Origin: a virus
Taxonomy: Duplodnaviria; Heunggongvirae; Uroviricota; Caudoviricetes
Length of the DNA: 5,629 nt
Reading direction: 5' to 3' (one strand)
IMG/VR virus record: IMGVR_UViG_2660238352_000003
Below are positions 2,296 through 2,983 of the stretch, in pieces (positions within the stretch are counted from its first letter, which is position 1; each line of letters starts with the position of its first letter). The translations under genes and the position numbers were made by a program. The notes beneath the pieces are model-generated. The model searched no databases. It saw only the letters and a list, made by a program, of their open reading frames with translations, and had not been told where the DNA came from.

Positions 2296-2331
2296 GAATC
2301 CTACATTGGCATGTGGTAGGATTGCCTACAT
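2267..2331. promoter_or_regulatory. OR-like operator cluster: three related 18-bp sites (2267-2284, 2289-2306, 2314-2331)
   Basis: Site a is ATGTAGGATATCCAACAT, a near-palindrome around GGATATCC. Site b is ATGTCAAGAATCCTACAT (right half conserved). Site c is TGGTAGGATTGCCTACAT (14 of 18 matches to the symmetric consensus). Centre-to-centre spacing is about 22 and 25 bp, between divergent cro-like and cI-like genes. Confidence 0.6.
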
Positions 2332-2983
2332 GATGAACATGAGTGATCGTATTCGCCAAAGGCGAAAAGAACTGAACCTGACACAACAAGCACTGGCTGA
2401 TTTGACTGGTGTGAACCGTGTCACGGTTACTGGATGGGAAAAGGACGACTACCAACCAAATGGAGCCAACCTTCAAGCCCTAGCCAACGCACTTAAATGC
2501 GATCCTCTGTGGCTTGTTAGCGGAAAAGGCTCGCCTGAACCAAAGATAAATCTAAAACCTGAAATATTCGCAGTTAAAAAAGTCCCCCTCATCTCGTGGG
2601 TTCAGGCGGGTTCATGGACAATGACGGAGCCTGGTGTCAGGAAAGAAGATGCTGAAGAGTGGGTTTATACTACCGCCCTTGTATCAGAAATGGCATTTGC
2701 ACTACGGGTCCGTGGTGATTCAATGACCAATCCCCTCGGCTCACCATCGATACCAGAAGGTTCTATCGTTATCGTAGAGCCAGATATTATTGATACAGAG
2801 TGTATTAACGGAAAAATCGTTGTTGCCCATATCAATGGTGGGCAAGAAGCGACACTCAAAAAATTTGTTGAGGACTGGCCGAACAGGTATCTCGTCCCAC
2901 TAAATCCTAACTATAAAACTATTGAATGCGGTGAGAACTGCAGAATAGTTGGTCTTGTCAAACAAGTAATAATGGATTTTTGA
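2330..2983 (+). CDS. cI-like prophage repressor: N-terminal HTH (XRE-type) plus C-terminal S24 LexA-like autopeptidase domain
   Basis: ORF track 2306..2983 begins at a TTG inside the operator cluster; the first ATGs are 2330, 2333 and 2339 (MSDRIRQRRKELNLTQQALADLTGVNRVTVTGWE...). The HTH region is followed by an Ala-Gly cleavage site (VQAGSW), the Ser motif VRGDSM and the Lys motif ATLKKF typical of LexA/cI S24 peptidases. The exact start is uncertain (2330 vs 2339); no strong SD, so possibly leaderless. Confidence 0.85.
   Translation: MMNMSDRIRQRRKELNLTQQALADLTGVNRVTVTGWEKDDYQPNGANLQALANALKCDPLWLVSGKGSPEPKINLKPEIFAVKKVPLISWVQAGSWTMTEPGVRKEDAEEWVYTTALVSEMAFALRVRGDSMTNPLGSPSIPEGSIVIVEPDIIDTECINGKIVVAHINGGQEATLKKFVEDWPNRYLVPLNPNYKTIECGENCRIVGLVKQVIMDF

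What the first reader, a model, noticed from the sequence alone, without database searches (positions are those of the whole stretch)
2306..2983. Apparently intact SOS-type repressor (autocleavable, S24) with a likely leaderless or SD-less start inside the operator cluster
The repressor keeps the Ala-Gly cleavage site (VQAGSW), the catalytic Ser (GDSM) and the Lys (TLKKF) of LexA-type S24 peptidases, so RecA-stimulated self-cleavage and SOS induction are plausible. The ORF caller's start (2306) is a TTG inside operator site b. The first ATGs (2330-2339) have no strong SD, and a weak -10-like TAGGAT (2317-2322) would start the transcript at or near the ATG, as the lambda PRM transcript does. 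An intact switch next to an IS-disrupted early operon raises the question of whether the prophage is still inducible.
Basis: partly seen in the sequence, partly recalled or inferred. Interest (0 to 1): 0.45.

Follow-up and report, generated by a model that had tools for sequence, protein, structure and literature searches.

The report
Ordinary SOS-cleavable prophage repressor gene
This is an intact, already catalogued lambda/P22-type prophage repressor that should cut itself when DNA is damaged; the exact same protein sits in a phage that has been induced with mitomycin C, so the finding is real but ordinary.

Summary
The ORF is real and intact. It encodes a 217-aa repressor starting at ATG 2330, not at the ORF caller's TTG 2306. 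It has an N-terminal HTH and a C-terminal S24 self-cleaving domain. Alignment to solved lambda cI places Ala93-Gly94, Ser131 and Lys177 on lambda's Ala111-Gly112, Ser149 and Lys192. The gene lies between a three-site right operator (O1-O3, 18-bp ATGTWGGATATCCWACAT) and a two-site left operator, each overlapping a strong TTGACA-18-TACATT promoter, as in lambda and P22. The protein is 100% identical to RefSeq WP_000981537.1 (136 complete E. coli genomes carry the region) and to the repressor of Stx1 phage Lys8385Vzw, which was induced with mitomycin C. The closest studied relatives are P22 C2 and phage 21 cI (44%). The leaderless-start idea is plausible and gains comparative support. O3's left half carries TGgTAGGAT, an extended -10, 7 nt before ATG 2330, and the TG is kept in 22 of 24 diverged loci. 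The ATG always abuts O3 and is always in frame. A weak SD (GGTAGGA, -5.5 kcal/mol, 8 nt) also exists, and no transcript 5' end has been mapped. Whether this prophage can still be induced cannot be judged from the window. Low novelty.

The parts
2330..2983 (+). Repressor CDS (217 aa plus stop), cI/C2-type
   Evidence: ORF. PGAP and GenBank place the start at this ATG. Pfam HTH_3 plus Peptidase_S24. PHROG 4 'transcriptional repressor', E 5e-59.
2351..2515 (+). N-terminal HTH DNA-binding domain (about residues 8-62)
   Evidence: Pfam HTH_3 E 1.2e-15. P22 C2 N-terminal domain 1adr/3jxb E 4e-14, 45% identity, TM 0.81.
2606..2611 (+). Ala93-Gly94 predicted self-cleavage site (VQA|GSW)
   Evidence: Aligns to lambda cI Ala111-Gly112. 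Invariant in 15 homologues.
2585..2959 (+). S24 peptidase / dimerisation domain (about residues 86-210)
   Evidence: Pfam Peptidase_S24 E 4e-25. Foldseek hits to the lambda cI C-terminal domain, LexA and UmuD'.
2720..2722 (+). Ser131, predicted nucleophile (GDSM)
   Evidence: Aligns to lambda Ser149. Invariant.
2858..2860 (+). Lys177, predicted general base (LKKF)
   Evidence: Aligns to the position mutated in lambda K192A structures 2ho0 and 8gmu. Invariant.
2267..2284 (.). Operator O1 (ATGTAGGATATCCAACAT, 0 mismatches); overlaps the PR -10
2289..2306 (.). Operator O2 (perfect right half, degenerate left half that holds the PR -35)
   Evidence: conserved in relatives
2314..2331 (.). Operator O3 (TGGTAGGATTGCCTACAT); its last two bases are the AT of ATG 2330
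2266..2295 (-). PR-like promoter TTGACA-18-TACATT driving the cro-like gene
   Evidence: 10 of 12 matches
2314..2322 (+). Candidate maintenance promoter: extended -10 TGgTAGGAT, predicted start at C2329/A2330
   Evidence: Read from the sequence. TGG is kept in 22 of 24 distinct related loci, whereas other half-sites carry ATG or TAG. Inferred, not mapped.
2315..2321 (+). Weak SD-like GGTAGGA, 8 nt before ATG 2330
   Evidence: -5.5 kcal/mol
3004..3033 (+). Intrinsic terminator after the repressor gene
   Evidence: 10-bp GC-rich stem plus T run (I13, 39; z -3.8)
3046..3063 (.). Left operator site (1 mismatch)
3081..3098 (.). Left operator site (0 mismatches), between the -35 and -10 of PL
3070..3099 (+). 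PL-like promoter TTGACA-18-TACATT driving yfdP-yfdQ-yfdR
2037..2234 (-). Cro-like gene (P22_Cro family), divergent from the repressor
   Evidence: E 7.6e-22
1431..2009 (-). CII-like activator (YmfL / CP76 family)
   Evidence: PHROG 101, E 9.5e-62

Best explanation
The gene encodes the maintenance repressor of a lambdoid (P22/phage-21-type) prophage. Shown: it is a 217-aa protein with an N-terminal HTH domain and a C-terminal S24 domain. It lies between two clusters of 18-bp pseudo-palindromic operators that overlap two strong outward promoters, PR toward cro/cII and PL toward yfdPQR. Inferred from family knowledge: repressor dimers occupy O1/O2 and the two left sites and shut both early promoters. 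O3 covers the repressor's own promoter and start codon, giving negative autoregulation at high repressor levels. After DNA damage, RecA-ssDNA filaments stimulate intramolecular cleavage of the Ala93-Gly94 bond by the Ser131/Lys177 dyad. This separates the DNA-binding domain from the dimerisation domain, and PR and PL are derepressed. Translation starts at ATG 2330, and the TTG at 2306 is an artefact. The most likely maintenance transcript starts at or one base before that ATG, from the extended -10 TGgTAGGAT embedded in O3, so it would be leaderless as in lambda PRM. Longer transcripts, such as one from a CII-dependent establishment promoter, could use the weak GGTAGGA Shine-Dalgarno. The confidence of 0.85 applies to the identity and mechanism of the repressor and to the ATG 2330 start; the leaderless-transcript step alone I put at about 0.45.
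For: Domains: Pfam HTH_3 1.2e-15 and Peptidase_S24 4e-25; PHROG 4 repressor 5e-59. Catalytic residues and cleavage site align to lambda cI 3bdn/2ho0/8gmu. They are invariant across lambda cI, P22-type C2, mEp390 cI and e14 YmfK and across 15 homologues. The AF2 model (pLDDT 69.5) hits lambda cI, the lambda cI-RecA complex, LexA and UmuD' for the C-terminal domain and P22 c2 for the N-terminal domain. Operators: 3 strong sites against 0 expected, plus O2 and O3. PR and PL each match 10 of 12 promoter positions, with an operator between the hexamers. Inducibility: the protein is 100% identical to the repressor of Lys8385Vzw, with 8 nucleotide differences in 1.5 kb. That phage was induced with 0.5 ug/ml mitomycin C, plaque-purified, and lysogenises K-12 strains (PMC7946995, PMC6986202). 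Start codon: PGAP and GenBank use ATG 2330. TTG 2306 is TGG in Lys8385Vzw. In 24 distinct related intergenic regions the ATG abutting O3 is always present and always in frame with the invariant Met, at 6 or 9 nt. That invariant Met corresponds to internal Met6 of the solved P22 C2 N-terminal domain (query 4-66 aligns to 1adr 6-68). In a P22-type locus the c2 ATG likewise abuts the last operator. Leaderless promoter: TGG-TAGGAT-N7-ATG is conserved in 22 of 24 loci, while the flanking spacer is not.
Against: No cleavage assay and no 5'-end mapping exists for this protein or for any close relative that I could find. The extended -10, the SD-like AGGA and the ATG all lie inside an operator. Their conservation could therefore reflect repressor binding alone, although TGG departs from the ATG/TAG seen at the same position of the other half-sites. 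With a start at 2330, O2 would be centred near -32.5 rather than at lambda's -42. Lambda-style activation of this promoter by O2-bound repressor therefore cannot be assumed. The AF2 model has only moderate confidence. Mitomycin induction of Lys8385Vzw shows SOS-dependent induction of a phage carrying this repressor, not cleavage of the repressor itself.
Confidence: 0.85

Rival explanations
1. The repressor is translated mainly from leadered mRNA using the weak GGTAGGA Shine-Dalgarno. Such transcripts would start at an upstream or CII-dependent promoter, and no leaderless maintenance transcript exists.
For: GGTAGGA pairs with the anti-SD at -5.5 kcal/mol, 8 nt before ATG 2330. The candidate promoter has no recognisable -35 and failed the promoter scan. 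A CII-like activator gene lies downstream of cro, as expected for an establishment promoter reading back through cro.
Against: No alternative promoter-like site on the + strand lies between cro and the ATG. A more distant relative (L010, 54% identity) has no SD-like sequence before its ATG at all. TG at -15/-14 is conserved in 22 of 24 loci although it departs from the operator consensus. The two modes are not exclusive, since lambda uses both (own knowledge).
Confidence: 0.35
2. Translation starts at the third ATG (2339, MSDRIR..., 214 aa). The transcript would come from TTGGCA(2306)-17-CATGAT(2334), a layout that reproduces lambda's geometry with O2 near -42 and O3 near -18.
For: The scan lists this promoter at 9 of 12 matches. 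The Met at 2339 is invariant in all 120 listed homologues. The PR-to-PRM start spacing would be about 80 bp, as in lambda (own knowledge).
Against: The standard start point for that -10 is 2340-2342, which would remove the ATG. TTGGCA is not conserved in any relative and reads TGGGCA in the inducible phage Lys8385Vzw. CATGAT is replaced by CATGAA or CATGGA in most relatives. The invariant Met is internal (Met6) in solved P22 C2. ATG 2339 has no SD.
Confidence: 0.08
3. Induction works mainly through an antirepressor rather than self-cleavage. The Rha/Ant-like protein encoded at 286-833(-), which sits under C4-type antisense RNA control, would inactivate the repressor non-covalently, and the S24 domain would serve only for dimerisation.
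For: A Rha-domain protein with hits to antirepressor PHROGs lies in the PR operon behind a C4 antisense RNA (78.8 bits) and isrK (58.7 bits). P22 Ant inactivates C2-type repressors (own knowledge).
Against: The cleavage site and the Ser/Lys dyad are invariant in this family, which would be unexpected if cleavage were dispensable. The ant-like gene lies downstream of PR, so it is expressed only after derepression. No LexA box was looked for or seen at it. Relatives such as L001 lack this module yet keep the same repressor.
Confidence: 0.07
4. The gene is a relic. The repressor is intact, but the prophage in this window is defective, so cleavage has no productive outcome and the repressor only silences residual early genes.
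For: An IS66-like ISCro1 end lies at about 5384, directly after yfdR, and truncates the next gene of the PL operon after 13 codons. No complete E. coli genome matches the window end to end; the best covers 94%.
Against: This concerns the state of the prophage, not what the gene is, and the window does not show the rest of the prophage. Within the window, cro, cII, all operators and both promoters are intact, and the 1950-3450 stretch differs from inducible Lys8385Vzw at 8 of 1501 bases.
Confidence: 0.4

Closest known systems
Phage P22 C2 repressor and phage 21 cI (imm21)
   Same: 44-46% identity over 95% of the length. The N-terminal domain matches solved P22 c2 at 45% identity, TM 0.81. The neighbour is a P22_Cro-family cro gene. 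The layout is the same: the start ATG abuts the third right operator, and a TAnGAT hexamer sits in that operator's left half. The Ala-Gly, Ser and Lys positions are conserved.
   Different: The operator sequence differs: ATGTWGGATATCCWACAT here, against ATTTAAG-N4-CTTAAAT for P22 (the P22 consensus is own knowledge; P22-type sequence). The N-terminal tail before the conserved Met is shorter, 3 residues against 5. The CII-like partner is of the YmfL/CP76 type rather than P22 C1.
Phage lambda cI repressor (PDB 3bdn, 2ho0, 8gmu)
   Same: Full-length sequence match, E 7e-25, about 30-35% identity, and the top structural match. The cleavage site and Ser/Lys dyad align. The gene sits between OR and OL, with a terminator and PL downstream. 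The start codon lies at the edge of OR3. Lambda's PRM transcript is leaderless (PMC10491246 abstract).
   Different: The N-terminal domain is closer to P22 C2 than to lambda cI. The operators are 18 bp rather than 17 bp, with centre spacings of 22 and 25 bp. The candidate -10 lies inside O3's promoter-proximal half, which would put O2 at about -32.5 rather than -42. There are no rexAB genes.
Enterobacteria phage mEp390 repressor (YP_007112454.1)
   Same: 60.5% identity. The recognition-helix segment GVNRVTVTGWE is identical, and so is the O3 sequence TGGTAGGATTGCCTACATG. The annotated start is the ATG abutting O3.
   Different: The linker and C-terminal domain have diverged. O1's left half reads TAGTAGGAT. 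There is one codon fewer between the two Met codons. It has not been characterised experimentally, as far as the library shows.
E. coli LexA and UmuD (MEROPS S24)
   Same: The S24 fold and Ser/Lys dyad. Self-cleavage at Ala-Gly is RecA-stimulated (own knowledge).
   Different: LexA has a winged-helix N-terminal domain and binds SOS boxes, and UmuD has no DNA-binding domain. RefSeq's name 'LexA family protein' reflects only the S24 domain.

Membership tests
Lambdoid cI/C2-type prophage repressor (HTH + S24) | N-terminal Cro/C1-type helix-turn-helix DNA-binding domain | tested here: met
   Pfam HTH_3 E 1.2e-15. P22 C2 N-terminal domain E 4e-14. Foldseek TM 0.81 to 3jxb.
Lambdoid cI/C2-type prophage repressor (HTH + S24) | C-terminal S24 (LexA-like) peptidase / dimerisation domain | tested here: met
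   Pfam Peptidase_S24 E 4e-25, covering profile positions 1-115 of 116. Foldseek hits to the lambda cI C-terminal domain, LexA and UmuD'.
Lambdoid cI/C2-type prophage repressor (HTH + S24) | Ser nucleophile and Lys general base at the positions of lambda S149 and K192 | tested here: met
   Ser131 and Lys177 align to them. Both are invariant in 15 homologues.
Lambdoid cI/C2-type prophage repressor (HTH + S24) | Ala-Gly scissile bond in the linker | tested here: met
   VQA93-G94SW aligns to lambda VQA111-G112MF.
Lambdoid cI/C2-type prophage repressor (HTH + S24) | Divergent cro gene with multiple repeated operators overlapping PR, and a second operator set at PL | tested here: met
   Five 18-bp sites; 3 strong against 0 expected. 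PR and PL promoters. P22_Cro gene.
Lambdoid cI/C2-type prophage repressor (HTH + S24) | RecA*-stimulated self-cleavage and SOS induction of the prophage | not testable with these tools
   Indirect only: the identical protein is the repressor of phage Lys8385Vzw, which was induced with mitomycin C (PMC7946995).
Lambdoid cI/C2-type prophage repressor (HTH + S24) | Sequence-specific binding of the protein to the operators | not testable with these tools
   Inferred from repeat structure, position and conservation.
Leaderless maintenance transcript (lambda PRM type) | A -10 element placed so that transcription starts at the A of the AUG | tested here: inconclusive
   TGgTAGGAT ends 7 nt before ATG 2330, so the predicted start is C2329/A2330. 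TGG-TAnGnT-N7-ATG is kept in 22 of 24 loci. However, it lies inside an operator, lacks a -35, and failed the consensus scan.
Leaderless maintenance transcript (lambda PRM type) | Mapped primary 5' end at the AUG | not testable with these tools
   No TSS data found for this locus or close relatives.
Leaderless maintenance transcript (lambda PRM type) | Absence of a usable Shine-Dalgarno | tested here: not met
   A weak SD is present: GGTAGGA, -5.5 kcal/mol at 8 nt. It is the weakest among the window's genes (-6.3 to -9.5 for the others).

The most novel reading that the evidence does not exclude
In this P22-related immunity family, one 18-bp operator (O3) may carry everything needed for autoregulated repressor synthesis. 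Its left half-site would be an extended -10 promoter (TGgTAGGAT), and its right half-site would end in the AUG of a leaderless mRNA. In that geometry O2-bound repressor sits at about -32.5 rather than lambda's -42, so the maintenance promoter would be activator-independent or controlled differently from lambda PRM. This compact arrangement is conserved across many Enterobacterales genera (Escherichia, Klebsiella, Enterobacter, Pantoea, Erwinia, Rahnella, Sodalis-related, Proteus).
Probability: 0.4. Interest if true: 0.25.

Novelty: already known. Interest (0 to 1): 0.1.

Why it matters
It matters little beyond correct annotation. The result fixes the start codon at ATG 2330 and defines the operators and early promoters of an immunity type that occurs in at least 136 complete E. 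coli genomes. That type also occurs in Stx1- and Stx2c-converting phages. In those hosts, repressor cleavage would couple SOS-inducing antibiotics to toxin-phage induction. If the leaderless, operator-embedded promoter were confirmed, it would be a neat variation on the lambda PRM theme, but not a new principle.

Tried and rejected
1. TTG 2306 as the start. Rejected: it has no SD, it reads TGG in Lys8385Vzw, and the upstream 'GRIAY' read-through seen in some database proteins is simply translated operator DNA.

2. Promoter TTGGCA-17-CATGAT, the only + strand hit of the scan near the gene. It is attractive because it reproduces lambda's operator geometry. Rejected as the main promoter because it is not conserved, it is broken in Lys8385Vzw, and its expected start would delete all three ATGs.

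3. E. coli K-12 e14 YmfK/CohE as a proxy that might have published TSS data. Only the S24 domain is related (35% over 146 aa), and the N-terminal domain and operators differ.

4. Rfam scan of the whole window at E <= 1. Nothing was found in the cro-repressor intergenic region or the repressor gene.

5. Literature searches for Lys8385Vzw, mEp390 and leaderless cI. They yielded induction conditions for Lys8385Vzw but no transcript mapping or biochemistry for this repressor. One search failed on a too-short term.

6. Search for the window's exact source among complete E. coli genomes. The best match covers 94% at 97.6-98.9% identity, and the ends (1-93 and the IS junction) differ.

7. Structure prediction gave only moderate confidence (pLDDT 69.5). 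I used it only for fold assignment.

Full report
**What is there**

The window is the immunity region of a lambdoid prophage of E. coli. On the + strand an ORF runs 2306-2983. Its product matches Pfam HTH_3 (E 1.2e-15) and Peptidase_S24 (E 4e-25, full-length profile match), and PHROG 4 'transcriptional repressor' (E 5e-59).

Divergent from it on the - strand lie a P22_Cro-family gene (2037-2234) and a CII-like YmfL/CP76-family gene (1431-2009). Downstream on the + strand lie yfdP, yfdQ (DUF2303) and yfdR (HD-domain 5'-deoxynucleotidase). After these comes the end of an IS66-like ISCro1 element, from about 5384.

**Catalytic residues**

phmmer against PDB sequences gives full-length lambda cI (3bdn) at E 7e-25. 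The printed alignment places VQAGSW on lambda VQAGMF (Ala111-Gly112) and RGDSMT on EGNSMT (Ser149). The first Lys of TLKKF falls on the residue mutated in the K192A structures 2ho0 and 8gmu.

- Numbered from ATG 2330, these are Ala93-Gly94 (nt 2606-2611), Ser131 (nt 2720-2722) and Lys177 (nt 2858-2860).
- All four positions are invariant in an alignment with lambda cI, a P22-type C2, mEp390 cI and e14 YmfK, and in 15 homologues of 60-86% identity.
- An AlphaFold2 model (mean pLDDT 69.5, moderate) finds lambda cI, the lambda cI-RecA filament complex, LexA and UmuD' for the C-terminal domain. It finds P22 c2 (TM 0.81, 45% identity) for the N-terminal domain.

**Operators and promoters**

The 18-mer ATGTWGGATATCCWACAT occurs three times at <=3 mismatches, where shuffles give none. 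These sites are 2267-2284 (O1), 3046-3063 and 3081-3098. Two weaker sites complete a tripartite right operator:

- O2 at 2289-2306 has a perfect right half, and its left half carries the PR -35.
- O3 at 2314-2331 reads TGGTAGGATTGCCTACAT.

The promoter scan finds two 10-of-12 promoters of identical design, TTGACA-18-TACATT, each with an operator between the hexamers. One lies on the - strand (2295-2266, toward cro) and one on the + strand (3070-3099, toward yfdP).

A strong intrinsic terminator (3004-3033) follows the repressor gene. This is the lambda/P22 arrangement: OR with PR on one side, the repressor gene reading away from PR, then a terminator, then OL/PL.

**Start codon**

TTG 2306 shares only its first base with O2 and has no SD (-0.7 kcal/mol). 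It reads TGG in phage Lys8385Vzw, so it is an ORF-caller artefact. PGAP and GenBank records start the protein at ATG 2330 (217 aa, WP_000981537.1).

Among 120 homologues, the Met three residues before the RIR motif is invariant, and a second Met always lies 2-4 residues upstream. The invariant Met is not evidence for a start at 2339, because it aligns to internal Met6 of the solved P22 C2 N-terminal domain (query 4-66 aligns to 1adr 6-68).

I collected 24 distinct versions of the intergenic region from Enterobacterales genomes. In all of them an ATG overlaps the end of O3 (CCTACATG). It is in frame with the invariant Met in 24 of 24, at a distance of 6 or 9 nt. In a P22-type locus the c2 ATG likewise abuts the last operator. 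I conclude that ATG 2330 is the start.

**Leaderless or not**

TGgTAGGAT is therefore an extended -10, which can function without a good -35 (own knowledge). Its last base lies 7 nt before A2330, which predicts initiation at C2329 or A2330.

In 22 of 24 related loci the three bases before the hexamer are TGG. The equivalent positions of the other half-sites are ATG or TAG, and the spacer just upstream is not conserved. This fits selection for a promoter inside O3.

Three points weigh against a firm conclusion:

- The motif lies inside an operator, so repressor binding could explain its conservation.
- The consensus scan does not list it, because it has no -35.
- GGTAGGA can pair with the anti-SD at -5.5 kcal/mol, 8 nt upstream. 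This is weak, and the weakest in the window (-6.3 to -9.5 for the other genes), but it is not absent.

The only + strand promoter the scan reports near the gene is TTGGCA(2306)-17-CATGAT(2334). It would mimic lambda's geometry. However, it would initiate at about 2341, past all three ATGs. It is not conserved in relatives, and it is altered in Lys8385Vzw (2307 T>G). I give the leaderless model about 0.45. A mixed regime, as in lambda, is quite possible: leaderless from the maintenance promoter and SD-led from an establishment promoter. No 5'-end data were found.

**Is it known, and is it inducible?**

The 1.5-kb core (1950-3450) occurs at >=80% coverage in 136 complete E. coli genomes, including ETEC H10407 and O157, O103 and O111 strains. 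It also occurs in six phage records, including Stx2c phages, vB_EcoM-720R4 ('repressor protein cI'), SKA5 and the Stx1-converting phage Lys8385Vzw.

The repressor of Lys8385Vzw is 100% identical in protein sequence. The 1.5-kb region differs at 8 bases, one of them a synonymous change in the gene. That phage was induced from strain RM8385 with 0.5 ug/ml mitomycin C and plaque-purified (PMC7946995). It was shown to lysogenise WG5, DH5alpha and MG1655 (PMC6986202). A prophage governed by exactly this repressor is therefore SOS-inducible in practice, although cleavage itself has not been shown.

The closest studied relatives are P22 C2 and phage 21 cI (44-46%) and lambda cI (about 30-35%). The closest named phage is mEp390 (60.5%), which shares the recognition-helix sequence and an identical O3.

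**The prophage in this window**

The switch itself (repressor, cro, cII-like gene, five operators, PR, PL and the terminator) is intact. An IS66-like ISCro1 end directly follows yfdR and truncates the next PL-operon gene after 13 codons. In intact relatives that operon continues to the integrase. Whether the rest of the prophage survives lies outside the window.

**Verdict**

This is a real, intact and correctly interpreted P22/lambda-type SOS-cleavable repressor. It is already annotated in public records and follows the textbook paradigm. The start-site idea is reasonable, and the comparative data here modestly strengthen it, but it is of specialist interest only.

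Noticed in passing
window 886-1074 (-), inside ORF 286-1434 (-): Rfam finds a C4 antisense RNA (RF01695, 886-973, 78.8 bits, gathering 45) and isrK (RF01394, 998-1074, 58.7 bits, gathering 50) inside the 5' half of the long 382-aa 'Ash+Rha' ORF. PGAP in relatives calls only Rha (286-1176) and a DUF4222 gene (1106-1285). This looks like a P1 immI / Gifsy-1 isrK-type module. 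A Rha/antirepressor-like protein probably starts at the ATG near 833 (-), behind a GGAGG SD, under antisense-RNA control, so the long ORF is probably over-called.
   Followed up: partly
window 3106-3445 (+): The 335-nt leader between PL and yfdP is very strongly structured (MFE -145 kcal/mol, z -7.45). It contains a terminator-like hairpin (GGCGGUACCAG...CUGGUACCGC followed by UCUUUUU, about 3253-3303) and a hairpin of about 25 bp (about 3298-3395). The stretch is 96-99% identical in many lambdoid and Stx phages (mEp460, cdtI, Stx2a phages). It has no Rfam match, and PGAP calls it a frameshifted hypothetical gene in one relative. It could be an antitermination or processing RNA, or an sRNA.
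   Followed up: partly
window ~5384-5629: This is the end of an IS66-like ISCro1 element. A DDE_Tnp_IS66_C ORF lies at 5428-5613 (-), and a GTAAGCG terminal repeat lies near 5398. It is inserted just after yfdR and truncates the following PL-operon gene (ATG 5349) after 13 codons.
   Followed up: partly
window 2281-2314: A 34-bp near-perfect palindrome (ACATGCCAATGT-N10-ACATTGGCATGT) is centred on O2, so the spacers flanking O2 are mirror images. In Lys8385Vzw base 2307 is G, which breaks this symmetry. Its significance is unknown.
   Followed up: no
L093 (phage mEp390) and L007, L008, L016-L022: Repressors only 60% identical to this one keep an identical recognition-helix segment (GVNRVTVTGWE) and an identical O3 (TGGTAGGATTGCCTACAT). 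These phages may therefore be wholly or partly homoimmune despite the divergence in the linker and C-terminal domain.
   Followed up: no
window 4685-4865 (+): There is a sub-threshold Rfam match to STnc100 (23.4 bits against a gathering score of 47, E 0.05) across the yfdQ-yfdR intergenic region. It is probably chance.
   Followed up: no
L001 9046-8723, L011 6229-6555 (relatives, outside the window): Related prophages carry a second, small (108-aa) 'LexA family' gene in the nin-like region next to rusA. It is not present in the window, and its role is unknown.
   Followed up: no
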